Part shown: in pieces, positions 5,495 through 64,000 of the stretch
Layout: each line of letters opens with the position of its first letter
Position numbering within the stretch: the first letter of the stretch is position 1
Assembly: GCA_944391065.1 (NCBI GenBank)
Contig: CALXSH010000003.1
Span: forward strand, 7,871 to 71,870
Source of the DNA: an uncultured Kiritimatiellota bacterium
Lineage (GTDB): Bacteria > Verrucomicrobiota > Kiritimatiellia > RFP12 > DVOR01
Direction: 5' to 3'
DNA: 64,000 nt
The notes under the pieces: model-generated
What the model was told of the DNA's origin: nothing
The model's database searches: none
What the model saw: the letters and a program-made list of their open reading frames with translations, nothing else
Position numbers and translations under genes: made by a program

Positions 5495-6127
5495 TCAGTG
5501 CTCCTTTTGCGCAATCAGTATTTCAAGATCGGCCAGCACGGCGTCGCAGGCCTCCGCACCGCGTCGGTCGCCCCGGGCAAGAAAGGCTTCCCGCGCCCCG
5601 GCGAAGGCGGCGCGTGCCTCCTCGGGGTGTCCGAGGGCCAGGGCGCATTTGCCCAGGTTGAAGGATGCCGCGGGACGCCAGGGGCCCGCGGCATCTCCGC
5701 TGTAGGCCAGGGCCTGCCGCAGGGCCTCCCGGGCGCGCAGAGGGTCGTCCAGCCGCAGCCGGAGTTCGCCGGCCAGCGCATGGCGGCGGGCCTCCCAGGC
5801 GGAACCGACGGAGGAGGGCAGGGGGGTAAGGAGGGCGAGCGCTCCGGCGGTGTTGCCTTCGGCCCGGAGGGCCTGTGCGGCCCCCAGAAGGGCGCGCGTG
5901 CGCAGCGCAGGGTCTTCGCTTTCCGCGGTCAGCGCCATAAAGGCCGCGAGTGCTTCGCGCGTGCGGCGGGCCCTGAGGAGGGCCCCGGCATTCTCCAGGG
6001 CCTGCTCCTTCGCGGCAGGGGCGAGCAGGGGAGCGGCGTCGGCGGCGGGATCCGCGGCGGGGGGCGTGCGGCAGCCGCCCAGGAGAAGCGCCGGCAGGAG
6101 GAGAAGAGCGTGCGTGAGGCGCTTCAT
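5495..6127 (-). CDS. TPR-repeat lipoprotein, candidate secretin pilotin (PilF/PilW/Tgl-like)
   Basis: Signal peptide with lipobox LLGGC. Ala-rich TPR-like helical repeats. Start overlaps the secretin stop (ATGA at 6124-6127). Sits directly downstream of the secretin, the usual pilotin position. Confidence 0.55.
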   Translation of the reverse strand: MKRLTHALLLLPALLLGGCRTPPAADPAADAAPLLAPAAKEQALENAGALLRARRTREALAAFMALTAESEDPALRTRALLGAAQALRAEGNTAGALALLTPLPSSVGSAWEARRHALAGELRLRLDDPLRAREALRQALAYSGDAAGPWRPAASFNLGKCALALGHPEEARAAFAGAREAFLARGDRRGAEACDAVLADLEILIAQKEH

Positions 6128-22210: not shown

Positions 22211-23518
22211 TCAGCGGGCAGCCTTTCCGAATCCCGAGAGGATGAAGCCGCAGAGGCGCGAGCAGAGTTTGGGCTGGAAATATTCGCCCATGCGCGTCAG
22301 CCGGAAGACGCCGTCCGTGCCGCGTGTCCAGAGGCCGGCCGCAGTCCAGTTTTCGCCCAGCGCGCCGAAATCGGTTTCGGGGAAGTCGGCGGGATTCAGG
22401 AAGCTGCGCTCGAGCTGATCGGCGAGGCGGCCCTTCAGCGCCAGGAAAGGCGGGCGCGGCATCACCTGGGCCAACGGTTTGCGTCCGGCCTCGACGGCTT
22501 CGCGGTAGGCCTCCGTGTCGGCGGTCTGCATGAAGCCCCAGGAGCCGAGGAAGCCGCCGGCACCGCCGCCGAAGGGGAGAATTTCGGCGCCGGTCTTGGT
22601 CCAGTGGTTGTAGCGGTTGCGTTCGTTCCCGTTGCGCCGCCAGTGCGTGCAGGAGAGCTGTTCCCAGCCGTGCGCGGCCAGCCAGTCGGAGGCCCCGGCG
22701 TGGCGGCGGATGCGCTCCTCCTCGCTCCAGCCGGAGCCCTCGCGTTCCATTCGGCGGGCCAGGGGCAGGCCGGGGAAGAGTTTCAGCGAGTAGAGATCCA
22801 CGCCGTCGAGGGGGGACGCCTCGGCGACGGTCCGGATGTTCTCCTCCATCCACTCCTCCTGGGTCTGCCCCGGAAGCCCATAAATCAGATCGGCCACCAG
22901 CGCCGTCTCTCCGCCCGCAATCTCACGGACGCGGAAGAGGCGCTCCAGCAGCTCTTCGCGGGACTGACGGCGGCCGAGCGAACGCCGCAGGTCGGTCTGG
23001 AAACTCTGGATGCCAAAGGAAAAGCGGTTTGCACCGGCCTCGCAGCAGGCCCGGACGCGTTCGTCGTCGAAGGCATAGAGGCGTCCTTCGACCGTGAATT
23101 CGACGTCGGGCGTAAGATTGAAGTGCGCGTAAATGAAGCGAATCAGGCGCCCAAGCGAACGGGCGGAGAGCGCCGTCGGCGTGCCGCCGCCGAAATACAC
23201 CACCTCAATCGGGGCCGTGAAGACGCCGCGGGAAACCTCGCGCTCCATCTCCCGGATCAGCAGATCGGTGTAAGACTCCAGCGCCTCTTCCGTCGCAGCC
23301 TGCCGGTAAAACCCGCAGAACGAACAGCGGCTGATGCAGAACGGCACGTGAACATACAGCATCTGGCGGACTCCCGGCGTCTGCCGGGCTTCGGCCCAGA
23401 CCGTCTGCGCGTCCGGCGTGCCGGATGATCCGCCCATATCGCCGTGCGGCGGCGTCGCTGCGGATGAGAGGGCAGCGATAACCTCTTCCCTGGTACCGGG
23501 CAACAGAAACGGATTCAT
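22211..23518 (-). CDS. HemN-family radical SAM protein (oxygen-independent coproporphyrinogen-III oxidase HemN / heme chaperone HemW / ChuW-like; subfamily unresolved)
   Basis: Start MNPFLLPG at 23518. Radical SAM cluster motif YVHVPFCISRCSFCGF. GGGTP SAM-binding motif (VVYFGGGTPTAL). HemN_C-like C-terminal domain. About 435 aa. Confidence 0.8.
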   Translation of the reverse strand: MNPFLLPGTREEVIAALSSAATPPHGDMGGSSGTPDAQTVWAEARQTPGVRQMLYVHVPFCISRCSFCGFYRQAATEEALESYTDLLIREMEREVSRGVFTAPIEVVYFGGGTPTALSARSLGRLIRFIYAHFNLTPDVEFTVEGRLYAFDDERVRACCEAGANRFSFGIQSFQTDLRRSLGRRQSREELLERLFRVREIAGGETALVADLIYGLPGQTQEEWMEENIRTVAEASPLDGVDLYSLKLFPGLPLARRMEREGSGWSEEERIRRHAGASDWLAAHGWEQLSCTHWRRNGNERNRYNHWTKTGAEILPFGGGAGGFLGSWGFMQTADTEAYREAVEAGRKPLAQVMPRPPFLALKGRLADQLERSFLNPADFPETDFGALGENWTAAGLWTRGTDGVFRLTRMGEYFQPKLCSRLCGFILSGFGKAAR

Positions 23519-23885
23519 ACGATTCTCGGTTTGCGTTGTCCGATCGCGCGGGTCCCCATGAAGCGGCACCGAGGTGCCTGTTTCATCCGTTTGACCGAAT
23601 AAAAAACGGCGCTATATTAGACGAGGCTAATGGTAAAGTCAAGAATTATTTTCACGAACTAATACTTTCTTCCTTTTCCGCTTCGACCGGCTGCCGCCCG
23701 CCCCTCCGCTCTTCCGGAATAGGGGATGCCTTCAGGCCGCATGAGCGTCAGCGGCCCCAAAGGGCAAGGAGCCCCCGGCTTCCGGCTTCGTGTTGCCTGC
23801 CCCGCGCGAAGGACGGACTGAGATTCCGCTTTACTCCGACCGCGGCTCTCCCCACCCGTGACATCGGCACAAGGCCTAGTCGACC

Positions 23886-23977
23886 TCTTGGGCTATAGCC
23901 GTAGCGCTTCTTGGGCTATAGCCGTAGCGCTTCTTGGGCTATAGCCGTAGCATCTCTTGGGCTATAGCCGTAGCGGT
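23886..23977. repeat. Tandem array of four 23-bp direct repeats, each carrying the palindrome GGCTATAGCC
   Basis: Units TCTTGGGCTATAGCCGTAGCGCT at 23886, 23909, 23932 and 23955. Palindromes at 23891, 23914, 23937 and 23960, exactly 23 bp apart. The last two units have slightly diverged spacers. Confidence 0.9.
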
Positions 23978-24091
23978 CGGACTTTGCCCAACACGATGTT
24001 GGGGTTGGCCCGGGATTTGGTTCGTTTTGGGCAGCATCCTTGTCCGTCACGGGTGCCTGCGCGCCGTTGCTTCCCCCGGCGGCGCCGTATC

Positions 24092-24100
24092 TGCTATAAT
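24092..24100 (+). promoter_or_regulatory. Extended -10 sigma70-like promoter element (TGcTATAAT) upstream of the DUF3127 gene
   Basis: TGCTATAAT at 24092-24100, about 35 nt upstream of the ATG at 24135. No good -35 is present, consistent with an extended -10 promoter. Confidence 0.4.
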
Positions 24101-24134
24101 GGCGGCGAGTGCAAACCCTTACAGGATTGATGAT

Positions 24135-24497
24135 ATGAGCAAATCGTACGAATTGGACGGCACGCTGAAGGAAATCATGGAGACCAGGACCTTCGAGAAG
24201 AGCGGATTCACGAAGCGTGAATTCGTCGTGACCGACGAGGATGACCGCTATCCGCAGCACATCAAGTTTAACGTGACGCGCAACAACTGCGCCCTTCTGG
24301 ACCGCTTTGCCGTCGGCGACCGCATCCGCGTGACCTTCTCCATCCGCGGCAATCAGTGGCAGGACCGCTATTTTGTCGACCTGAACGCCTTCAAGCTCGA
24401 AAAGCTCGATGTCGACGGGTCCACCAGCGAGCCGATTCCGCAGCCTGACGAGACCTTTGTCGCCGATACCATCAACGATGAAGACATGCCCTTCTGA
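24135..24497 (+). CDS. DUF3127 domain protein with acidic C-terminal tail ending DEDMPF
   Basis: ATG at 24135, in frame with ORF 23934-24497. 120 aa. The core (FTKREFVVTDEDDRYPQHIKFNVTRNNCALLDRFAVGDRIRVTFSIRGNQWQDRYF) matches the DUF3127 family as I recall it. The C-terminal 30 aa are acidic and end in ...INDEDMPF. Confidence 0.6.
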   Translation: MSKSYELDGTLKEIMETRTFEKSGFTKREFVVTDEDDRYPQHIKFNVTRNNCALLDRFAVGDRIRVTFSIRGNQWQDRYFVDLNAFKLEKLDVDGSTSEPIPQPDETFVADTINDEDMPF

Positions 24498-24510
24498 GGC
24501 ATCCTCGCCG

Positions 24511-25362
24511 ATGACGCTGGGGCGGCTCCTGGAGGCAGGGGCCGCCTATCTGTGCCGTCACGGCTTCGACGGCGCCGAGGCACGCTGTCAGAGCGGCATT
24601 CTGATTGCCGAGGCGACGGGGGTGCCGGCGCTGCGTCTGGCGACGGCGGGAGACCGGGCCGCCACGGCGGCCCAGGTGGAGCGGCTGCGGCAGGAATTCC
24701 GGCGCGTGGCCTTCGGCGAGCCGATTCAGTATGTCGTCGGGCATTGGCCCTTTCATGACATTGAGCTCAAAACCGACGCCCGGGCACTGATTCCGCGGCC
24801 CGAGACCGAAGAGCTTGTCGGGCTGGTGCTCCGTTCGCCGCAGTGGGCGCAGGCCCGCGACATAGCCGACATCGGCACCGGCACGGGGGCGATCGTCCTG
24901 GCGCTGGCCCATGCCGCGCGCGGCACCCCGAAATCCTTCACGGCGGTCGATCTCTCGCCGGAGGCTCTCGCGCTGGCCCGCGAAAACGCCGCCGCGCTGG
25001 ATCTGCGGGTGCGTTTTCTGCAGGGGGAGGGCTGTGCGCCTCTGGCGCCCGGGAGCACGGACATTCTGGTCTCCAATCCGCCTTACATAGCCTCCCGCAC
25101 CGTGGACACGCTCGACCCCCGGGTCCGCGACCATGAGCCGCGCCTGGCGCTTGACGGCGGGGAGGACGGCCTCGATGCGGTGCGTTCCATTCTGCTCGGG
25201 GCCACGCAGGTGCTGCGGCCGGGAGGACGGATTTTCTTCGAAATCGGCGACGAGCAGGGACTCTCCGTCCAGCGTCTGCTGGAACGGGCCGGCTATACCG
25301 ATGTCGGCCTCGGTCGCGATGCCGCCGGGCATGACCGCTTCGCCTGGGGCACGCTGCTGTGA
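24511..25362 (+). CDS. prmC: Release factor glutamine N5-methyltransferase PrmC (HemK)
   Basis: ATG at 24511. SAM-binding motif DIGTGTGAIVLALA. Catalytic NPPY motif (VSNPPYIAS). About 283 aa. Confidence 0.85.
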   Translation: MTLGRLLEAGAAYLCRHGFDGAEARCQSGILIAEATGVPALRLATAGDRAATAAQVERLRQEFRRVAFGEPIQYVVGHWPFHDIELKTDARALIPRPETEELVGLVLRSPQWAQARDIADIGTGTGAIVLALAHAARGTPKSFTAVDLSPEALALARENAAALDLRVRFLQGEGCAPLAPGSTDILVSNPPYIASRTVDTLDPRVRDHEPRLALDGGEDGLDAVRSILLGATQVLRPGGRIFFEIGDEQGLSVQRLLERAGYTDVGLGRDAAGHDRFAWGTLL

Positions 25363-26870
25363 AGCCCTGTCCGCTGCCCGTCGCGCGGGACCGCGAACGT
25401 CTGGCGCGGCAGATTGCCGGGGCGCTGCCCGGGCTGCGGGCCCAAACGTCGCCTCCGTGCCGCCACCCGGAGGTGACGCTGCTGATGTATTGGTTTCCTC
25501 CGGACGGAAGTTTCGACCCGTGCGAGCATGCCATCCGCCGCACGTGGGCCGTTTTGGGCCGTCTGCCGACGGTCTTGGTCATGGACCGGCCGGGCGAAGC
25601 TGCCAAGCGCTTCGCCCGGGAGACGGGATGCGTGATTCAGACCGAACCGTCTCTTCGGCCCGGAGACATCCGTACGATGAGCGCGGACTGCTGCCTGCGG
25701 CTGGCAGACCGCTTCGCCACGCGCCATGTGCTGATCGTACAGGATGACGGATGGCCGCTTTTGGACAAGCTGGACGATTTTCTGGGATACGATTATGTCG
25801 GCGCCCCGAATGTCCGACCCGGACTGCGGGCGGCACTTGCCGACCGCCTGGGGCTTACGGTGCTCAACGGCGGCTTCTCCCTCCGCTCGCATGCGCTCTG
25901 CCGGGCCGTGGCGGCATTGTGCCGCCGCCGTCCGCCGCGGCCCGAAATCCCGGAGGACCGTATCTACTGCAGACGGGCTTGGCGGCGGCGGTTCCGTTTT
26001 CCCCCGGCAGCGGCGGCACGCCGCTTTTCGGAGGATATCCTTGACGGGGGGCTGCTGCCGCCGCCCGACAGCCGGCCGATGGGGTTTCACCGGGCCTCGA
26101 CCCTGCTGAGCGGCGCACCGCCGAAACTGACGGTCGTGACGGCCGTACGGGACCGGGCGTGCTATGAACGCTGCGTCCGCTCCAATCCCCATCTGGCCGG
26201 GGCCCGTTTTGTGGCCTACGACAATGCGGCCGACAACCGGCCTGTTCCGGAACGTTACAATCAGTTTCTCGAGGCCCTGCCGCCCGACACGGAATGGATT
26301 CTCTTCGCCCATGAGGATTTTGAGGTGCTGGAGGATCCGCGCCCGCTGCTGCGCTGGAGGGCGCCGTGGTTTCCGTACGGCCTGATCGGTACGCGCCGTG
26401 TGGCGGGATGCTTCATCCTGCCTTTCGGGGCGCTGAGCGATTCGGACCGCGACGGCGGCCGCCGCACGCTCCACCGGCCGCTGCCCTGGCTGCCGGCGCT
26501 GACGGGGGGCAGTATGGTCGATGCATTCGACTGCTGCGGCTTCTTTGTCCATGCCGAGCTGTTCAGACAGTGGCCGCTGCGCTTTGACATACGCTTCCCT
26601 TGGGATCTGTACGCGGAGGATTTCTGCTTCGCCTATCAGCGGCAGACGGGGCACTGCGCGCGGCTGCTGCCGCTGAGGGCGCACCACTGGTCGCGCGGCG
26701 ATACGGGTACGGAGCATTTCCGCTGCGCACTGGCGGCGCTCAATGCCAAATATGCGGAGGCTTTCTTTGCCGGCGGCACCTGTACGGCCTATGTCGGCGG
26801 GCGTCCGCCCCTGCGCTTCCGTCTCTGGAGGCGTCTGGTCCGTTTGCTGATGCCGATGCGGCGCTCCTGA
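25359..26870 (+). CDS. Hypothetical protein, 503 aa, translationally coupled to prmC (possible two-domain glycosyltransferase-like protein)
   Basis: ATGA overlap with the prmC stop (25359-25362). Acidic motifs LIVQDDGWPL and FAHEDFEVLEDP, Trp/Cys-rich C-terminus. No confident family assignment. Confidence 0.5.
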   Translation: MKPCPLPVARDRERLARQIAGALPGLRAQTSPPCRHPEVTLLMYWFPPDGSFDPCEHAIRRTWAVLGRLPTVLVMDRPGEAAKRFARETGCVIQTEPSLRPGDIRTMSADCCLRLADRFATRHVLIVQDDGWPLLDKLDDFLGYDYVGAPNVRPGLRAALADRLGLTVLNGGFSLRSHALCRAVAALCRRRPPRPEIPEDRIYCRRAWRRRFRFPPAAAARRFSEDILDGGLLPPPDSRPMGFHRASTLLSGAPPKLTVVTAVRDRACYERCVRSNPHLAGARFVAYDNAADNRPVPERYNQFLEALPPDTEWILFAHEDFEVLEDPRPLLRWRAPWFPYGLIGTRRVAGCFILPFGALSDSDRDGGRRTLHRPLPWLPALTGGSMVDAFDCCGFFVHAELFRQWPLRFDIRFPWDLYAEDFCFAYQRQTGHCARLLPLRAHHWSRGDTGTEHFRCALAALNAKYAEAFFAGGTCTAYVGGRPPLRFRLWRRLVRLLMPMRRS

Positions 26871-57161: not shown

Positions 57162-59765
57162 TTACTCGGCCCCGTCGCTCCCGGCCGCGCTCCCGTCGGC
57201 TTCGGCCACGGTTTCCGCGTCGGCCCCGGCAGCGGCCCCGGCAGCGGCCCCTTCGGCGGTCTCGGCGTCTTCCTCCGCGGGGGCGATGGAGAAGGATGCC
57301 ATGGTGACGCCCTCCTGCAGTCGGATGAAGTTGACGCCCGCTGCGGTGCGGCCGAGGACGGAGACCTCCGCGACGCGGGTGCGGACGAGAAGCCCGGCGG
57401 TGGAGAGCAGGACAAGCGTCTCGTCGCCGCGGACGGTGGCGATGCCGATGAGTTTGCCGTTGCGCTCGTTGTCGCGCGGCATGCCGATTACGCCGGAGGA
57501 GCCGCGGTGGGTGACGCGGAAGTCACCGAAGGCGGTACGCTTGCCGCGGCCGTTCTCGGAGACGAAGAGGAGCGCGCTGTCGGCGGCCTCGACGGCCATG
57601 CCGCAGACGCGGTCAGCGTCGGACTTCAGGCGCATGCCGCAGACGCCCATGGCGTTGCGTCCGACACGGCGGACCTCGTCGATGAGGAAGGCATTGACCA
57701 GACCGTCGCGGGAGGCCATGAAGACCTTGTCGCCCGGCTGGGTAAGCATGACGCGAACGATGGCATTGCCCTCGGCGATATTGATGGCGATGAGGCCGGA
57801 ACGGTTGACGTTGCGGTAATCGGAGAGCGCCGTACGTTTAATCGTGCCGTCGGTCAGGGCAAAGGTGATGTCGCGGTCCTCGTCAAAGGAGCGGATTGCG
57901 AGCAATTCGACGATGTGCTCCTCCTTGGGCAGGCCGGGCAGGATGTTGCTGACGTGGGTGCCGGCCGCGGTGCGGCGGCACTCGGCGATGGCGAAGGTGC
58001 GCGCGGAGAAAACGCGGCCGCGGTCGGTGAAGAAGAGGAGCGTATCGTGCGTCATCGGGACGTAGAGACGCTCGATGAAGTCCTCCTCCTTGAGCAGGAC
58101 GCCGCGCTTGCCGCGTCCGCCGCGGCGCTGAGCCTCGTACTCGGAGAGCGAGGTGCGCTTGAGATAACCGCGGTGGGAGAGGGTGATGACGCAGGGTTCG
58201 TCGGCGATAAGATCCTCAATGCCGACATCGGCCGCGTCGGATTCGAGCTGGGTGCGGCGGTCGCCTTCCTTGGTGTAGGCGGCCTTGAGCCCCTCGAGGT
58301 CGTCTTTGATGAGACCGAAGACGCGGGCGGGATTGGCCAGGATGTCGCGCAGGTCGGCGATAGAGGCGCGAAGGGCGGTCTGCTCGTCGAGCAGTTTGCC
58401 GCGTTCCAGACCGGTCAACTGGCGCAGGCGCATCTCGAGGATGGCGGAGACCTGGGCGTCGGAGAAGCCGAAGCGCCCGCAGAGGCGCGCCTTGGCCTCG
58501 TCGTTGTTGGCCGAGTCACGGATGATGTGGATGACCTCGTCGAGATTATCCTGGGCGATGAGGAGGCCGTCGACAATGTGGAGGCGCTCCTCGGCGCGGC
58601 GGAGGTCAAACTTCGCGCGGCGGGTGTGGACCTCAAAGCGGTGGTCGACGTAGCAGCGGAAGAAATCGCGCAGCGTCATGCGGCGCGGACGGCCGTGGTC
58701 AAGCGCGATCATGTTCGCGCCGAAGGTGGACTGCAGCTCGGTGTGCTTGTAGAGCTGATTGAGAATGATTTCGGCGGGATTCTTCGCGTTCTGCTTAATC
58801 TCGATGACGACGCGGATGCCGTCGCGCTTGGAGGATTCGTCGCGGATGTCGGCGATGCCCTCGATTACGCCCTCCTTGACCAGGTCGGCCATGTGGGTGA
58901 CCATGACGGCCTTGTTGACCATGTACGGGATGGAGGTGATGATGATGGCCTCGCGGCGCCCCGGGGCGGCGGGCTCAATCGTCGCCTCGCCGCGGACGGT
59001 CACCGAACCGCGGCCGGTTCGGTACATGGCGGCAATGCCGGCCAGACCGCAGATCTTGGCGCCGGTGGGGAAGTCGGGACCTTTGACGAAGCGCATGAGA
59101 TCGTCAATGGTGGCCTCGGGGTGGTCGACAAAATAAATGAGGCCGTCGCAGAGCTCGCGCAGATTGTGCGGGGGGATGTTGGTGGCCATGCCGACGGCAA
59201 TGCCCTGGGAGCCGTTGAGCAGCAGGTTGGGCAGCTTGCTCGGAAGCACCTTGGGCTCGCGCTCTGTGCCGTCGTAGTTCGGCACGAAGTCGACCGTGTC
59301 CTTCTCGATGTCGGCCATCATCTCGCCGGCGATTTTCGCCATGCGCGACTCGGTGTAACGCATGGCCGCGGCGCCGTCGCCGTCGATGGTGCCGAAGTTG
59401 CCGTGGCCGTCGACCAACGGGACGCGCAGGCTGAACCACTGCGCCATGCGCACCAGCGTGTCGTAGATGGAAAAGTCGCCGTGGGGATGGTATTTACCCA
59501 TGACGTCGCCGACGATGCGCGCCGACTTGCGGTAGGGCGAAGTGTAAAAATTCTTGTTCTCGTGCATCGTGTAGAGCACACGTCGGTGCACGGGCTTGAA
59601 ACCGTCGCGGGCGTCGGGAAGGGCGCGCGCCACAATGACGCTCATGGAGTAGTCGATGTAAGAGTTCTTCATCTCCTCTTCGACATCGATTGAGGCAAGG
59701 CGGGTGTCGGCGGCCGGCGCAAGGGCGGTCTCGGCGGCCTGGGGCACGGATGTTTCGTCGTCCAT
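57162..59765 (-). CDS. gyrA: DNA gyrase subunit A
   Basis: Start MDDETSVPQ at 59765. [38 protein letters not shown]. Active-site Tyr region ([10 protein letters not shown]). C-terminal beta-pinwheel repeats and acidic tail. TATACT -10-like element upstream. Confidence 0.95.
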
Positions 59766-60005
59766 CGGGGATCCTTTCAAAGGTTCATCAAGTATAGCAT
59801 AATCCGCCCCCTTACGGGCACTTCCCTCCTCGCCGCCTGGCCGCGCAGCGTCCATCGTGACGCGTCATCCATCCCGACGCACAGCCTGCCGGCAGGGGTA
59901 GGACCTCGCAGACCGGCAACCCCTCCCCGCGCTCCTGGCCCTCGGCGCGTTTCCTCCCGGACATCAGTGCCATCCGACCGCGACACCGCCCAGAATCGAC
60001 ATCTG

Positions 60006-60086
60006 ACCCTATAGGGTAACCTCACACCACCCTATAGGGTGATACTGTATCACCCTATAGGGTCATCAGTCATCACCCTATAGGGT
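60006..60086. repeat. Array of four ACCCTATAGGGT palindromes at exact 23-bp phasing (spacers not conserved)
   Basis: Palindromes at 60006, 60029, 60052 and 60075 (copies 2-4 extend to the 14-bp CACCCTATAGGGTG/A). Lies between the gyrA upstream region and the DUF1796 gene, at the high-GC / low-GC boundary. Confidence 0.9.
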
Positions 60087-60408
60087 AAGCTATCCGGTAT
60101 TGCCCTCACCCGTGTCCGGACATCCCCGCTTTTGGGCCAGGACCCGCCCCAGTCCCGCTCCTGTCCCACCGTATTCTTTCCCGCCGCCCCATCACCGTCG
60201 GCCTCGGCGAAGCCACCAAGGCCCGCAAACTCCCCCTGCCGGCCCTCCTACGACGCACCCAAAGACGCGGTACCCCCTCTCGGCAGTGCGTCATCTCATG
60301 TACACGCTTCACGTATGCCTCATGTTTGCATATGGCTTTCCGCATATGGTACAGTGTGCCCAAAGTTACGGCGATGAAATGCGTGATATTGAATGGAGCG
60401 GAAGCACA

Positions 60409-61184
60409 TGAGTGAGACCCGGATATATGATTGTATTGTGCCACTGGGATGCAATTGCTCTTCGGCGCTGCAGTTGCGGTTTCGAAAACTCCGTCAGTGC
60501 TCTCTGCCGTTCGATTGGCTGTACTATCAGGGCGATTGTCTTCCTGAGACTTATGTCGGAATGATTGAATCTCACTTTGCGGCTTGGCTCGAGAGAAAGA
60601 ATCTTGAGGTCAAGGATACGCGCAAAGAGCCGGGAAGCGGTCGCCATTCCACTGTGACGGATCTGCAGTGCGGTATTACATTTCTTCATGATTTTCTGAC
60701 TTATCCGTTGACGGATACGGAGTTGGAGACTGTCCGCGCAAAATATCAGCGGCGGATCGACCGTCTTTACGCACTGTGCGGGCATGCCGACAGGATTCTC
60801 TTTGTGATTACCGGTACAGCCGGGCAACTGAATCGTGAGAGACTCCTTGAGACTCGGCGGCGCCTGTCTGCCCTCTTCCCGCAGGCGGCCATTGATATCT
60901 TTGCGGTTATCACAGAGGCTTCGACCTTTGAAATGGTGGAGAGCCCCGAGAATGGCCTTTACCTTTCGCTGACGACGAGGAAACGGTCAACGTATGATTT
61001 GCACCATAGGCCCTGGGAGTGGTCGTGGCTGGATTCGGTCTGTTTGTCCGATGCAATGCGGGACATTCTCGGGCATGCGCCGCAGAAGCCTGCGGGCTTG
61101 TTGGACAGGTGGATTTACAAGCTTTATAAACACCTGAAAAAGACTCTGATCCGACGCGGCAGACTCCCACCGGAGTGGGACTGA
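60409..61184 (+). CDS. DUF1796-family putative papain-like cysteine peptidase
   Basis: ATG at 60409 with GGAG RBS. N-terminal motif IVPLGCNCSSALQLRF...SLPFDWLYY typical of DUF1796. GC about 52%, far below flanking DNA. Confidence 0.55.
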
Positions 61185-61599
61185 TATTTCGGGGCCCCCG
61201 TAAAAGTCCGTGGCAGTCAACCGAGCAAGACAGACGCTAGAAAGCAATCATGAAGGGGTAAATGTGTGTCTGGAAAAGGACGCTGGGTGACAGAAGGGGC
61301 GCGCAGCCCCTCAGGTCTGGTTGCAGTGTAGCTTCAGTCCAAGTGTCTAGTTTTGATATATACAAGAAGTCTAGTTTGAAATATACACGACAGACATTTA
61401 GGTCGATGGCCCCAGCCCCTCCCGTCTTTTGCTATACTCCGTCCGCACGCAGCGCACCACCCAGGAGTGAAATGAAAGTCCGTAATAGGGCCATTGAAGG
61501 CTTCAAGATCCCCGATTCTCGATTTTCTCGCGAAGGGCGCGGATACTCTACCTATAATGAGGTCTGCAACCGCACTGCAGGCACCTGCGCAACCATTGA

Positions 61600-61900
61600 C
61601 CGGGCGGCGGGAGCCTCTTCGCCAAGGGTGGCATCCGAGGATTTTGTTGGCAGGCCGCCCCGCACACGCAGGGCAAGCCCGTCCACATCATCCGCGGAGC
61701 CGTCTGGGACGTCGCCGTCGATATCCGTAGAGGTCCTTCACCTCTCAGCCACTCTGTCGCGGCCAAACTCTCCGCCGACAATGGTCTTTGTCTCGACGCC
61801 CTTGTGCCAGATCCCTGTTGGTGAGTCCTCGGTGTTCCGCGGAACCTTACCGAGAAGGCCCCCGTCATCCTTTCCTCGCCGACATTGAACCTTGGGGAGG
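61600..61900 (+). pseudogene. rmlC: Remnant of dTDP-4-dehydrorhamnose 3,5-epimerase gene (rmlC): internally deleted and frameshifted
   Basis: In-frame translation gives ...FAKGGIRGFCWQAAPHTQGKPVHIIRGAVWDVAVDIRRGPSP...KLSADNG. This matches RmlC blocks (ERGFF...; PPFAQxKLVRxVRGAxFDVAVDxRRGSPT; ELSAENK) but lacks about 35 aa between them, has an in-frame stop at 61597, and loses frame after about 61800. Confidence 0.5.
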
Positions 61901-61930
61901 ACCTTCAACCACGCTCTTTGAGGACCAATA

Positions 61931-62947
61931 ATGATTGCTTTCACGAATAGTCCGCCGCTGGCCACCTACATTCTCTTGGCCTATCGTCAAGCAGACTTGG
62001 TCGGTAAGGCCATTGAATCTGCCTTGGCTCAGACCTATCCCAATCTCGAGATTATCATCTCCGACGACTGCTCTCCTGATGATACTTGGGAGGTTATTCA
62101 GAAGACCGTCGAGGGTTACAAGGGACCTCATAAGATCATCCTTAACCGTACTGAGCACAACGGCGGTCTCGTCGGTCACATAAACGCCCTCTTTGCCATG
62201 GCTCACGGCGAGGTCTTCATCACTGCCGGCGGCGATGACATCGCCTATCCCGATCGCGTCGCCCGAGTCATGGAAGTCTTCCGAGAACATCCCGAGGCCT
62301 CCATGGTCGGGTCGGAATATGACACCATCGACGCTCAGGGAAACCGCGGCCTTCCCAAGAACCATCGTAATACCGGCTGCGTCGTCCGTTACCCCTATGA
62401 CTCGCTCGAGGCCCTCTACGACACCTTTCCCTGCTTCTGCGGCGCCGTGCTCGCCTACCGCCGCGACGTCTTCGATCGGTTCGGGCCCTTGGATCCCGCC
62501 AGTTGGGCCGAAGACATCACGCTTGGTTTTCGCGCTTCCCTCCTCGGGGAGATTTGGTGGATTGAATCACCTCTCGTCCACTATCGCATACAGGGCGGTG
62601 TCTCCACGTCTACCGTTCGGTGCATCGCTCCGGTCGTCCGCTGTGCCGTCGGGACGCTGGCGATTTATCGCCAGCTGGAGGCCGACGTCCGTCTGCTTGG
62701 ACGGGATGAACGTTATGCCGCATTGCTAGCCCGGATTTCCGATGATATCGTCAGATACACGAACAACGTCCGTGCCCTGACGGCCCCGTGGCCCTGGCCC
62801 TCGATTCCTGCCGGGATCGCTTATTACCGCCATGGCAACGAGTCCCGTGGCATGCGGCGGCGAGCGCTTCTGATGTCGCTGGTGCCCCGGTTTCTCCGTC
62901 CCGGCTTCTTCCGGCTGCTTCGCTTCCGTATGGCTCGGCGGGCGTGA
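61931..62947 (+). CDS. Glycosyltransferase family 2 protein
   Basis: N-terminal GT-A fold with acidic motifs IIISDDCSPDDT and ITAGGDDIAYPDR. 338 aa. Arg-rich C-terminal tail. Confidence 0.75.
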   Translation: MIAFTNSPPLATYILLAYRQADLVGKAIESALAQTYPNLEIIISDDCSPDDTWEVIQKTVEGYKGPHKIILNRTEHNGGLVGHINALFAMAHGEVFITAGGDDIAYPDRVARVMEVFREHPEASMVGSEYDTIDAQGNRGLPKNHRNTGCVVRYPYDSLEALYDTFPCFCGAVLAYRRDVFDRFGPLDPASWAEDITLGFRASLLGEIWWIESPLVHYRIQGGVSTSTVRCIAPVVRCAVGTLAIYRQLEADVRLLGRDERYAALLARISDDIVRYTNNVRALTAPWPWPSIPAGIAYYRHGNESRGMRRRALLMSLVPRFLRPGFFRLLRFRMARRA

Positions 62948-63057
62948 TTCTCGCCGGGCGGGTTCCCTATAGAGAAATCATAAGATACGCCACAGAAGGG
63001 GCCTGTGGCGTGTGCCGACGGACCGATGCTTCAGACGTCTTCTCAGAGGCACTCCGC

Positions 63058-63639
63058 TCAGAGCGCGGGCCCTTTGCGGGGAAGCCGACAGATAACCCAA
63101 AGCCCGAAGAGCTTCAGCGTCGCGCAACCGTTGCCAAAGCGCCATACGAAGCGCCGACGTCTGTCAAACGGCGACAAATCCTTCAGTGTAACTACCTGTC
63201 CAGCTCCATCGTCGAAGCGTCTATTCCGTCCGGCAGCGACCGCATCCCGGAATCCCTTGATGGACGCATCAAGATGGTTCCAGCCCAGTGAATCCTTCAG
63301 CGACCCCAAATCGTACTCCCACCACTGAGTTGCTTCAATCTCGCGGATCTGATCCGCTGAACGCATTCGAATCAGTCTGGCCGGAATTCCTCCGGCGATG
63401 GCACAGGGCGGGACATCTTTGGTGACGACGGCACCGGCCCCGATTATGGCCCCGCGCCCGACCGTTATACCGCCCATGATAATCACGCGACTTCCAATCC
63501 AGACATCGTGACCGAGAATGACAGGTCCATCACAGGTCGTGTGGGGGCGCAATGCAGCTTTGGTCTTCCAGTATGGCAGATGGGTTATAGGGGACGTCGT
63601 CAGACAAGTCAGGGGATATATCAGCGGCGAGAATGTCAT
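63058..63639 (-). pseudogene. Hexapeptide-repeat xenobiotic acetyltransferase (Vat/CatB-like), apparently N-terminally degraded
   Basis: The ORF carries the LbH core and XAT C-terminal motif (GHDVWIGSRVIIMGGITVGRGAIIGAGAVVTKDVPPCAIAGGIPARLIR...WWEYDL). The expected about 110-aa N-terminal half is absent. An upstream alternate frame (about 63640-63710) encodes a short CIAPP fragment resembling the XAT FCSIGPG block, implying a deletion plus frameshift. Confidence 0.45.
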
Positions 63640-63924
63640 CCTCGCGTTCGGAAAATGTCAATGCGCCTACGCTCAGAGGCGTAGACGCATTTCGGATGGC
63701 GAGTGACGGATGTGAGAATTGCTAAAGAACGCTGAGGAGGGGGCGTTGCTGTGGAGAGAGGAATGTGCTATCGTTGCGCTGTCATGCGAAGATGCGGGCT
63801 GTGCGTTCGGTAATGCTCAGTCTTTGCTGGGTAATGGATAGCGCACCGATTGAATCGAAGGTGCATGAGAAATGCGATGCGCCCTTGTGGGCAGAGCAAT
63901 TTTCACGGAAAGGAGCCTGAGACA

Positions 63925-64000
63925 ATGGCGGTGGAGAGAACACGAGGCGTTGCGATCGAACCCATCGGAAAGCCCTATGGCAAGACGGTCGGTGTGGCGA
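63925..64000 (+). CDS. Hypothetical protein, 5' fragment (continues beyond window)
   Basis: AAGGAG RBS followed by ATG at 63925 (MAVERTRGVAIEPIGKPYGKTVGVA...). Confidence 0.25.
   Translation, partial: MAVERTRGVAIEPIGKPYGKTVGVA

What the first reader, a model, noticed from the sequence alone, without database searches (positions are those of the whole stretch)
24135..24497. DUF3127 protein ending in an SSB-like acidic tip (DEDMPF)
The 120-aa protein has a DUF3127 core and an additional 30-residue acidic tail ending ...INDEDMPF. That tail closely mimics the C-terminal interaction tip of bacterial SSB (DDDIPF), which docks into partner proteins such as primase, RecQ, ExoI and the chi subunit. 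A small protein carrying such a tip could be an ssDNA-binding SSB-like factor or an SSB-tail mimic that competes for the SSB interactome. It is the first gene of an operon with prmC and sits under the palindromic operator array.
Basis: partly seen in the sequence, partly recalled or inferred. Interest (0 to 1): 0.55.

Follow-up and report, generated by a model that had tools for sequence, protein, structure and literature searches.

The report
Compact SSB-like protein, DUF3127 family
This small gene very probably encodes a compact single-stranded-DNA-binding protein with the same acidic "...D-D-x-P-F" docking tip as classical bacterial SSB, and that tip is conserved across the whole DUF3127 family, so this is an under-annotated member of a known kind of protein.

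Summary
Window 24135-24497(+) encodes a 120-aa DUF3127 protein (Pfam E 1.7e-23) ending INDEDMPF.

- **Tail.** It is not a lineage accident. 125 of 150 diverse family representatives, 76 of 78 genomic homologues from the PVC group (Planctomycetota-Verrucomicrobiota-Chlamydiota and allies) and 58 of 60 viral homologues end in PF. The family consensus is [DE][DE][DE]-D-D-[LIM]-P-F, the same as the canonical SSB tip.
- **Phage relatives.** They belong to PHROG 4932, "single strand DNA binding protein". They lie in replication and recombination modules, and at least one phage has no other annotated SSB.

The best reading is therefore a real, compact SSB-type protein: an OB core, a short disordered acidic linker and a partner-docking tip. 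A pure tail decoy is less likely.

In this Kiritimatiellia chromosome the gene is resident (GC3 equals that of its neighbours). It is followed 13 nt later by prmC, an adjacency kept in about 50 species.

The protein is not a sequence member of Pfam SSB (PF00436). I could not test whether the genome also has a canonical SSB.

Novelty is modest. Phage and IMG annotations already call relatives SSB, but no experiments are known.

The parts
24135..24497 (+). Gene for the 120-aa DUF3127 / SSB-like protein, stop codon included
   Evidence: ORF and translation. Pfam PF11325 E 1.7e-23. PHROG 4932 'single strand DNA binding protein' E 4.2e-24 over residues 5-120. Called as a 120-aa gene on public contigs.
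24144..24407 (+). OB-fold core, residues 4-91: b1 4-14, short strand 18-20, b2 25-34, b3 41-48, helix 49-55, b4 63-75, b5 78-90
24408..24476 (+). Short disordered acidic linker, residues 92-114 (DVDGSTSEPIPQPDETFVADTIN)
   Evidence: No regular secondary structure and pLDDT 60-67. Length and sequence vary across the family, with Gly/Arg-rich inserts in some members such as P0033.
24477..24494 (+). C-terminal tip DEDMPF, residues 115-120, equivalent to the SSB-Ct motif DDDIPF
   Evidence: Sequence. P119 and F120 at least 90% conserved. Family logo [DE][DE][DE]-D-D-[LIM]-P-F. E. coli tail verified against PDB.
24092..24100 (+). Extended -10-like element TGCTATAAT, 35-43 nt upstream of the ATG (inferred promoter)
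   Evidence: Read from the sequence. Similar TGnTAnAAT-type elements lie 40-55 nt upstream in several orthologous loci. The consensus scan found no full -35/-10 promoter here, so this is an inference.
24123..24126 (+). Shine-Dalgarno-like AGGA, 8 nt before the ATG
   Evidence: Read from the sequence. AAGGA/GAGG motifs occupy the same place in many orthologues.
24511..25362 (+). prmC (release-factor N5-glutamine methyltransferase), second gene, 13 nt downstream
   Evidence: NCBIfam TIGR03534 at 236.3 bits against a cutoff of 199.1. Pfam PrmC_N plus MTS. Directly downstream of the DUF3127 gene in about 50 species loci.
25359..26870 (+). DUF5672 protein (503 aa), third gene; its start overlaps the prmC stop by 4 nt
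   Evidence: Pfam PF18922 on the called gene. Conserved as the third gene in the closest roughly 25 species.
23886..23975 (.). 23-bp x 3.9 tandem array (unit TCTTGGGCTATAGCCGTAGCGCT, core palindrome GGCTATAGCC) in the 565-bp divergent intergenic region; its relation to the gene is unproven
   Evidence: TRF score 159. Four exact 18-mers against 0.03 expected, and none elsewhere in the window. Present in same-species contigs only.

Best explanation
The gene encodes a compact SSB-type protein of the DUF3127 family. A roughly 88-residue OB-fold core binds single-stranded DNA. This is inferred from the fold, from conserved basic and aromatic residues (F25, K27, R28, Y39-P40-Q41, K44, F68, R71, W75) and from family context.

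A short disordered acidic linker of about 23 residues ends in a conserved D-E-D-M-P-F tip. As in canonical SSB, the terminal Phe and its carboxylate, with the preceding acidic residues, are expected to dock into the pockets of SSB-interacting genome-maintenance proteins. The protein would thereby recruit those partners to ssDNA it coats, and compete with the housekeeping SSB for them.

In this Kiritimatiellia chromosome it is a resident, vertically inherited gene. It is transcribed from its own promoter-like element together with prmC and a DUF5672 gene. Most likely it acts as a second, specialised SSB beside a canonical one.

**Shown:** the sequence, family membership, conservation of the tip, the predicted fold, the synteny and the phage context.
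**Inferred:** ssDNA binding, partner docking, oligomeric state and auxiliary status.
For: **Family and annotation**
- Pfam DUF3127, E 1.7e-23.
- PHROG 4932 'single strand DNA binding protein', E 4.2e-24, covering residues 5-120 including the tail. Weak hits to the SSB PHROGs 44 and 378.
- Two homologues are named single-strand DNA-binding protein by IMG.

**Fold**
- Two independent AF2 runs give the same b1-b3/helix/b4-b5 OB topology with core pLDDT up to 90-96.
- Foldseek PDB: all 50 top hits are SSB or PriB.
- BFVD: phage DUF3127 proteins first, then phage SSBs.

**Tip**
- PF terminus in 125/150 representatives out of 7,775 family clusters.
- PF terminus in 76/78 PVC genome ORFs, including 25/27 whose tails did not align.
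- PF terminus in 58/60 viral ORFs.
- The logo equals the SSB-Ct consensus.

**Phage context**
- 88 phage genomes carry relatives, and RefSeq names them SSB.
- They lie beside exonuclease, NinG and primase/helicase genes.
- The relative is the only annotated SSB in Cellulophaga phage phi10:1. That phage protein also hits the canonical-type SSB PHROG 44 at E 1.8e-6.

**Remote sequence signal**
- hhalign places R71/W75/D77-R78-Y79 on E. coli R84/W88/DRY, with an L45 loop 5 residues shorter.
- 4/150 members hit PF00436, best E 4.5e-6.
- An HMM built from PDB-verified SSB OB domains gives colinear weak hits.

**Resident gene**
- GC3 is 0.81, against 0.78-0.86 for neighbours.
- The neighbourhood is housekeeping, not prophage.
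- DUF3127-prmC adjacency holds in about 50 species, down to 46% identity.
Against: - There is no significant profile similarity to canonical SSB: no PF00436 hit for this protein even at E<=1, no PDB sequence hit, and hhalign probability of 12% against E. coli SSB and 0.2% against a 6-sequence SSB profile.
- The fold and the disorder are predictions. ssDNA binding, oligomeric state and partner binding were not and cannot be tested here.
- No functional link to prmC is apparent.
- Whether a canonical SSB coexists in this genome is unknown. None was found in the window or in 1.0 Mb of related loci, which is uninformative.
Confidence: 0.72

Rival explanations
1. SSB-tail decoy or regulator. The OB core does not bind ssDNA usefully. 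The protein acts mainly by presenting an SSB-Ct-like tip that competes with the housekeeping SSB for its partners, titrating or re-routing them.
For: The tip matches the SSB-Ct consensus. The core is shorter than canonical SSB, with no PF00436 match and no significant hhalign match. The linker is very short, about 23 residues.
Against: The core is conserved as strongly as the tip, with invariant or near-invariant basic and aromatic residues. Its nearest folds are ssDNA-binding SSB and PriB. Phage relatives occupy the SSB slot of recombination/replication modules, and the relative is the only annotated SSB in phi10:1. A decoy would not need a conserved OB domain.
Confidence: 0.1
2. It is the primary replicative SSB of this lineage. 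Kiritimatiellia would have replaced, or lack, the canonical PF00436 SSB and would use the compact DUF3127 protein at the replication fork.
For: The gene is resident, apparently single-copy and conserved with fixed synteny in about 50 Kiritimatiellia species, with at least 556 hits in PVC genomes. It has its own strong -10-like element. No canonical SSB was seen in the window or in 1.0 Mb of related loci.
Against: The sequence searched is a tiny fraction of these genomes, so absence there carries no weight. No rpsF/rpsR/rplI linkage was found in any locus. From general knowledge, PF00436 SSB is near-universal in bacteria, and Bacteroidota, which also carry DUF3127 genes, have canonical SSBs. 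Outside Kiritimatiellia the neighbours of the gene are variable, which is unlike a core replication gene.
Confidence: 0.12
3. An OB-fold protein for a different ligand (RNA, metal as in CusF, or oligosaccharide), whose PF terminus is unrelated to SSB biology.
For: Weak sub-threshold Pfam hits of some family members to CusF_Ec (19/150) and RecJ_OB (10/150). The OB fold is generic.
Against: The exact SSB-Ct consensus is kept across thousands of clusters and in phages. Foldseek's top 50 hits are exclusively SSB or PriB. The phage genomic context is DNA replication and recombination. The protein has no signal peptide or metal-binding motif.
Confidence: 0.04
4. A prophage or mobile-element remnant that is not part of host physiology.
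For: The family is common in phages of Bacteroidota and in IMG/VR contigs.
Against: Viral relatives are at most 46% identical. There are only 2 plasmid hits. No phage genes lie within +/-10 kb. GC3 equals that of neighbours. Synteny with prmC is conserved across a class.
Confidence: 0.02

Closest known systems
Phage DUF3127-type SSBs (PHROG 4932), e.g. Cellulophaga phage phi10:1 gp021 and Flavobacterium phage vB_FspS_hemulen6-1 gp38
   Same: Same sequence family: PHROG 4932 E 4.2e-24 and about 32% identity over 95% of the length. Same size, same OB core, same acidic ...[DE][DE][IL]PF tip. Annotated 'single strand DNA binding protein' in RefSeq, citing PF11325.
   Different: The phage genes lie in exonuclease / NinG / primase-helicase modules. 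This gene is chromosomal, in an operon-like unit with prmC and DUF5672. I found no biochemical characterisation of any member; only one paper in the library mentions DUF3127.
Canonical bacterial SSB (Pfam PF00436; E. coli SSB, PDB 1EQQ/1EYG)
   Same: OB fold with helix between b3 and b4. It is the best structural match class. Near-neutral core plus acidic disordered tail. Identical tip consensus D-D-D-[IL]-P-F. There is a local b4-L45-b5 resemblance, with R71/W75/DRY aligned on R84/W88/DRY.
   Different: There is no PF00436 profile match and no significant hhalign match. The core is about 25 residues shorter, with a shorter L45 loop. The linker is about 23 residues and acidic/Pro-rich, against about 50 Gly/Gln/Pro-rich residues in E. 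coli. The tetramer interface is not assessable.
PriB (primosomal replication protein N)
   Different: PriB has no acidic C-terminal tail (PMC8509808 abstract) and, from general knowledge, is restricted to beta/gamma-proteobacteria. This protein has a conserved tail and occurs in PVC, Bacteroidota and phages.
Secondary SSB paralogues (B. subtilis SsbB, mycobacterial SSBb, Streptomyces SsbB)
   Different: Those are PF00436 members and several lack the PF tip. This protein belongs to a different sequence family and keeps the tip.
T7 gp2.5
   Same: A phage SSB with an OB fold and an acidic C-terminal tail ending in an essential Phe that mediates partner binding (general knowledge, not tested here).
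   Different: Unrelated in sequence, about 232 aa, dimeric. It was not among the top structural hits.

Membership tests
Pfam DUF3127 (PF11325) | Profile HMM match above the gathering score | tested here: met
   83.1 bits against a cutoff of 27, E 1.7e-23, residues 6-89 covering profile positions 1-85 of 85.
PHROG 4932 (annotated single strand DNA binding protein) | Full-length profile match including the C-terminal tail | tested here: met
   E 4.2e-24, residues 5-120 on profile positions 1-117 of 117.
Canonical bacterial SSB family (Pfam PF00436) | Sequence-profile membership | tested here: not met
   No PF00436 hit at E<=1. No NCBIfam hit. No PDB sequence hit with the single sequence or the profile. 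hhalign probability 12% against E. coli SSB and 0.2% against a 6-sequence SSB profile. Only 4/150 family members reach PF00436 weakly.
SSB-type architecture (functional class) | OB-fold ssDNA-binding core of the SSB/PriB structural type | tested here: met
SSB-type architecture (functional class) | Intrinsically disordered linker after the OB domain | tested here: met
   Residues 92-114 have no regular secondary structure and pLDDT 60-67. Length and sequence vary among homologues.
SSB-type architecture (functional class) | Conserved acidic C-terminal tip ending in Pro-Phe (SSB-Ct) | tested here: met
   DEDMPF here. PF terminus in 125/150, 76/78 and 58/60 homologue sets. The logo equals DDD[IL]PF. 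The E. coli tip was verified.
SSB-type architecture (functional class) | Binds ssDNA with high affinity | not testable with these tools
   Needs EMSA or fluorescence titration. Here it is only inferred from the fold, the conserved basic/aromatic residues and the phage context.
SSB-type architecture (functional class) | Homo-oligomer (tetramer, or dimer of two-OB chains) | not testable with these tools
   Only single-chain prediction was available. Some family members have two tandem DUF3127 domains (P0045, P0097, P0111, P0181), reminiscent of two-OB SSBs.
SSB-type architecture (functional class) | Tip-dependent binding to genome-maintenance partners | not testable with these tools
   Needs pull-downs or ITC with tip peptides.
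PriB | SSB-like OB protein lacking the acidic C-terminal tail | tested here: not met
   A 29-residue acidic tail with a conserved PF tip is present.
PrmC (neighbouring gene 24511-25362) | NCBIfam equivalog TIGR03534 above cutoff; NPPY motif | tested here: met
   236.3 bits against a cutoff of 199.1. The motif SNPPYI is in the translation.

The most novel reading that the evidence does not exclude
In Kiritimatiellia, and perhaps more widely in the PVC group, the compact 120-aa DUF3127 protein is a class-wide core component of genome maintenance rather than an accessory paralogue. It would be either the replicative SSB itself, replacing a PF00436 SSB, or a dedicated second SSB with its own interactome. 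Its fixed co-transcription with prmC would reflect growth-rate-coupled expression. This would make DUF3127 a second, independent sequence family of cellular SSBs that has converged on, or retained, the same DDxPF docking code.
Probability: 0.12. Interest if true: 0.6.

Novelty: new member of a known kind. Interest (0 to 1): 0.3.

Why it matters
**What changes.** DUF3127 is still a "domain of unknown function" in Pfam and in NCBI genome annotation, yet it is a large family: 7,775 clusters at 50% identity. The analysis here shows that essentially the whole family has the SSB architecture of OB core, disordered linker and DDD[IL]PF tip. That gives the family a concrete, cheaply testable function. 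It also flags a second sequence family of cellular and phage SSBs that uses the same partner-docking code.

**Practical consequences.**
- Genome annotation of PVC and Bacteroidota.
- Recognition of phage SSBs, which are triggers or targets of several anti-phage systems.
- Understanding how small an SSB can be.

**Limits.** It does not overturn anything. Phage databases and IMG already label relatives as SSB, and the mechanism proposed is the textbook one.

Tried and rejected
- **Sequence search of the PDB.** The single protein and the family profile gave only chance hits.
- **Profile-profile comparison with canonical SSB.** Not significant: 12% against E. coli SSB and 0.2% against six PDB-verified OB domains. 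I therefore do not claim PF00436 membership.
- **NCBIfam.** No family.
- **Rfam and tRNA scans of the window.** Nothing found.
- **Canonical SSB in the window plus 89 loci (1.0 Mb).** tblastn with E. coli, B. subtilis and M. tuberculosis SSB found none. This says nothing about the whole genome.
- **rpsF/rpsR/rplI linkage.** None in any locus.
- **Conserved neighbours in the 31 PVC loci without prmC.** No family recurs in more than 4 loci, so no functional clue came from there.
- **Plasmid origin.** Only 2 plasmid hits.
- **Prophage origin.** Rejected on context, GC3 and synteny.
- **PHROG search of phi10:1 gp019.** This was the expected annealase between the exonuclease and the SSB. It gave no hit, so the "exo-annealase-SSB trio" argument is not used.
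- **AFDB50 fold search.** Not available.
- **Literature.** One paper mentions DUF3127, where it co-hits with a canonical SSB domain in a Pantoea phage SSB. None mentions PF11325.
- **The array as an operator overlapping the promoter.** Rejected on its position. Its role remains unexplained.

Full report
**1. The observation**

Window 24135-24497(+) is an ATG-initiated ORF of 120 codons plus TGA. It encodes MSKSYELDGTLKEIMETRTFEKSGFTKREFVVTDEDDRYPQHIKFNVTRNNCALLDRFAVGDRIRVTFSIRGNQWQDRYFVDLNAFKLEKLDVDGSTSEPIPQPDETFVADTINDEDMPF. Exactly this 120-aa product is called on at least 23 public metagenome contigs, and orthologues begin at the same Met. The longer in-frame TTG ORF (23934..24497) can therefore be dismissed.

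Pfam places residues 6-89 in DUF3127 (PF11325) at 83.1 bits against a cutoff of 27. Residues 92-120 have net charge -9 and no Lys or Arg. The core has charge +1 and pI 7.9, almost the same as the OB domain of E. coli SSB at +1 and pI 8.0.

**2. Is the tail an accident?**

No. Four independent sets of homologues agree.

- **Close homologues.** Among 24-27 homologues from the 5.8-billion-protein search, P119 and F120 are at least 90% conserved. The Kiritimatiellia consensus is S-D-[DE]-D-M-P-F.
- **Family representatives.** A profile search of 1.84 billion representatives found 7,775 clusters at E<=1e-3. Of the best 150, 125 end in PF and 135 end in F. The logo of the last eight residues is [DE][DE][DE]-D-D-[LIM]-P-F, which is the canonical SSB-Ct motif.
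- **A set chosen independently of the tail.** The profile above contained the tail, so I checked a second set. Loci in GTDB species genomes were found through two core peptide patterns. Of 78 complete ORFs, 76 end in PF. That includes 25 of the 27 whose tails were too divergent for tblastn to align.
- **Viral contigs.** In IMG/VR contigs, 58 of 60 complete homologues end in PF.

Linker length and composition vary freely, from about 15 to more than 100 residues, with Gly/Arg-rich inserts in some members. The tip stays fixed throughout. That is the pattern known for SSB proteins.

**3. The core**

AlphaFold2 with 24 homologues gave mean pLDDT 80.5. With 150 diverse homologues it gave 86.6, with core blocks at 90-96 and all five models at 85-87. 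Both runs give the same topology: b1 (4-14), a short strand (18-20), b2 (25-34), b3 (41-48), a helix (49-55), b4 (63-75) and b5 (78-90). This is the OB fold with the helix between b3 and b4. Residues 92-120 have no regular structure (pLDDT 60-67).

| Search | Result |
|---|---|
| Foldseek, PDB | All 50 best matches are SSB or PriB, best E 5e-6 |
| Foldseek, BFVD | Phage DUF3127 proteins first, then phage SSBs |

**4. Sequence relation to canonical SSB**

This is weak, and I do not claim membership.

- This protein has no PF00436 hit even at E<=1, no NCBIfam hit and no PDB sequence hit.
- hhalign of the 150-sequence family profile gave 12% probability against E. coli SSB. Against a profile of six PDB-verified SSB OB domains it gave 0.2%.

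What signal exists is consistent in register.

- hhalign aligns FAVGDRIRVTFSIRGNQWQD-----RYFVDL with [31 protein letters not shown]. That puts R71 on R84, W75 on W88 and DRY on DRY, with an L45 loop five residues shorter.
- 4 of 150 family members reach PF00436, best E 4.5e-6.
- An HMM I built from the six SSB domains gives colinear weak hits to the b3-helix-b4-L45-b5 half of several members. The best is P0158, E 8e-4 in a 205-sequence set.
- The phage member phi10:1 gp021 hits the large SSB family PHROG 44 at E 1.8e-6. The window protein hits it at E 0.017.

I read this as probable very remote homology. It remains unproven.

**5. What relatives do**

PHROGs files the family (PHROG 4932) as "single strand DNA binding protein". 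The window protein matches it over its full length, tail included, at E 4.2e-24.

88 phage genomes carry a relative at about 32% identity, and all infect Bacteroidota. RefSeq names these proteins SSB, citing PF11325. They lie among an HNH endonuclease, a primase/helicase and NinG in Flavobacterium phage hemulen. In Cellulophaga phage phi10:1 the relative lies between a YqaJ/RecE-type exonuclease and NinG plus a primase/helicase. It is the only SSB annotated in the 50 kb of that genome I listed (100 of the record's 108 annotated features).

IMG names two close homologues single-strand DNA-binding protein. The only paper in the library that mentions DUF3127 reports it co-hitting with a canonical SSB domain in a Pantoea phage SSB. 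I found no biochemical study.

**6. Setting in this genome**

Homologue names and genome titles place the window in Kiritimatiellia, within the PVC group.

- **Neighbourhood.** It is ordinary chromosome. Upstream and divergent are a HutW/ChuW-like radical-SAM gene, ABC/ECF transporters and a flavodoxin. Further out are NifU/NifS, ExbBD, endonuclease III, type II secretion genes and GyrA. No phage genes lie within +/-10 kb.
- **Composition.** GC3 of the gene is 0.81, against 0.78-0.86 for its neighbours.
- **Downstream genes.** prmC starts 13 nt after the stop (TIGR03534, 236 bits against a cutoff of 199). A DUF5672 gene overlaps the prmC stop.
- **Synteny.** tblastn across the fetched loci shows prmC immediately downstream in about 50 of 80 species loci, all of the Kiritimatiellia type and down to 46% identity. 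DUF5672 is third in the closest roughly 25. The 31 loci that lack prmC carry mostly Verrucomicrobiales, Akkermansiaceae or Opitutaceae titles, with a few titled Kiritimatiellia, Lentisphaerae or Victivallales. They share no conserved neighbour.
- **Promoter and ribosome site.** A TGCTATAAT element lies 35-43 nt before the ATG (24092-24100) and an AGGA lies 8 nt before it. Similar extended -10 elements occur in several orthologous loci. In other species the gene directly follows a 254-aa ORF.

The "first gene of an operon with prmC" claim therefore holds for this species as an inference. I see no functional logic linking an SSB to a release-factor methyltransferase, and I treat the linkage as a lineage-specific operon.

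**7. The upstream array**

The 23-bp x 3.9 array at 23886-23975 (core palindrome GGCTATAGCC) is real and unique in the window. It is conserved in same-species contigs. It lies about 120-210 bp upstream of the -10-like element, so it is not an operator overlapping that promoter.

Two other species carry unrelated 22-23-bp tandem arrays at a similar distance upstream of their DUF3127 gene: L030, with an 18-bp perfect palindrome, and L020. I have no explanation for this and did not pursue it.

**8. Mechanism proposed**

*Shown:* family membership, the predicted OB fold, the disordered acidic tail, the conserved SSB-Ct-type tip, the conserved chromosomal synteny and the phage replication context.

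*Inferred:*
- The OB core binds ssDNA through the conserved basic and aromatic face (F25, K27, R28, Y39-P40-Q41, K44, F68, R71, W75).
- The protein oligomerises.
- The tip docks Phe120 and its carboxylate, with the acidic residues, into the pockets of SSB-interacting proteins. E. coli RecO, for example, binds the last nine residues of SSB (PMC7913777 abstract).

A protein of this kind both recruits partners to the ssDNA it covers and competes with any canonical SSB for them. A DNA-binding SSB is the better-supported primary function. My confidence by reading:

| Reading | Confidence |
|---|---|
| Bona fide compact SSB (best explanation) | 0.72 |
| It is the sole replicative SSB (sub-case of the above) | about 0.12 |
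| Pure tail decoy | 0.10 |
| OB fold for a different ligand | 0.04 |
| Prophage or mobile-element remnant | 0.02 |

**9. What remains open**

I could not determine whether the genome also encodes a canonical PF00436 SSB. The window, its contig extensions and 1.0 Mb of related loci contain none, but that is a negligible sample of these genomes. This is the one result that would raise the interest of the finding.

**10. Verdict**

The item is a new, chromosomal PVC member of a known kind of protein. It belongs to a family that Pfam and NCBI still label DUF but that phage resources already call SSB. Its novelty is modest and it is easily testable.

Interest: 0.3.

Noticed in passing
window 23886-23975: A 23-bp x 3.9 tandem array (TCTTGGGCTATAGCCGTAGCGCT, 10-bp palindrome GGCTATAGCC) lies in the 565-bp divergent intergenic region. 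It has four exact 18-mers against 0.03 expected and occurs nowhere else in the 64 kb. It is conserved only in same-species contigs, and its function is unknown.
   Followed up: partly
L030 about 5730-5808; L020 about 5681-5786: Two other Kiritimatiellia-type species carry unrelated-sequence tandem arrays about 190-320 bp upstream of their DUF3127 gene, despite different upstream genes. One is 23 bp x 3.5 with the perfect palindrome GAGAGTCAGCTGACTCTC. The other is 22 bp x 3.4.
   Followed up: partly
window 24135-26870; loci L005-L064: The gene order DUF3127 - prmC - DUF5672 is conserved across about 50 (prmC) and about 25 (DUF5672) Kiritimatiellia-type species. It is absent from the 31 loci without prmC, which carry mostly Verrucomicrobiales, Akkermansiaceae or Opitutaceae titles. 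In L006, L017 and L023 about 330-560 extra bases separate the DUF3127 gene from prmC.
   Followed up: yes
proteins P0045, P0097, P0111, P0181 (family representatives): Some DUF3127 family members are 185-261 aa long with two tandem DUF3127/OB domains in one chain. This recalls the two-OB SSBs of Deinococcus-Thermus.
   Followed up: partly
window 22211-23569 (-): The divergent upstream gene is a radical-SAM protein. It scores 392.6 bits on the HutW/ChuW (anaerobic haem degradation) equivalog, just under the cutoff of 400. It sits next to ABC/ECF-type transporter genes (CbiQ, Trep_Strep) and a flavodoxin.
   Followed up: no
window 60001-64000 and beyond (L151 8478-20345): GC drops from about 0.65-0.70 to 0.55-0.585 over a cluster of glycosyltransferase, polysaccharide deacetylase, pyruvyl transferase, FdtA, hexapeptide acyltransferase and DegT aminotransferase genes. 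This is probably a horizontally acquired surface-polysaccharide locus, just past gyrA (57162-59855, - strand).
   Followed up: no
L046 and L047 (both contigs of MAG CAZYRQ01); L015 (titled Agathobacter rectalis); L081 (titled Enterobacteriaceae): One MAG holds two contigs that each carry a DUF3127-prmC pair, which suggests strain mixture in the bin. Two genome records with non-PVC titles carry Kiritimatiellia/PVC-type copies, which suggests mis-binned or contaminant contigs.
   Followed up: no
L005 13916-16090: In the 66%-identical orthologous locus, a RecD2-type helicase (OB_YrrC, HHH_RecD2, AAA_30, UvrD_C_2) lies four genes downstream of the DUF3127 gene on the same strand. No counterpart exists in the window.
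   Followed up: no
window 23934-24497 (+): A longer in-frame TTG ORF (187 aa) runs through the tandem array into the gene. Orthologue alignments and public gene calls support only the 120-aa ATG product.
   Followed up: yes
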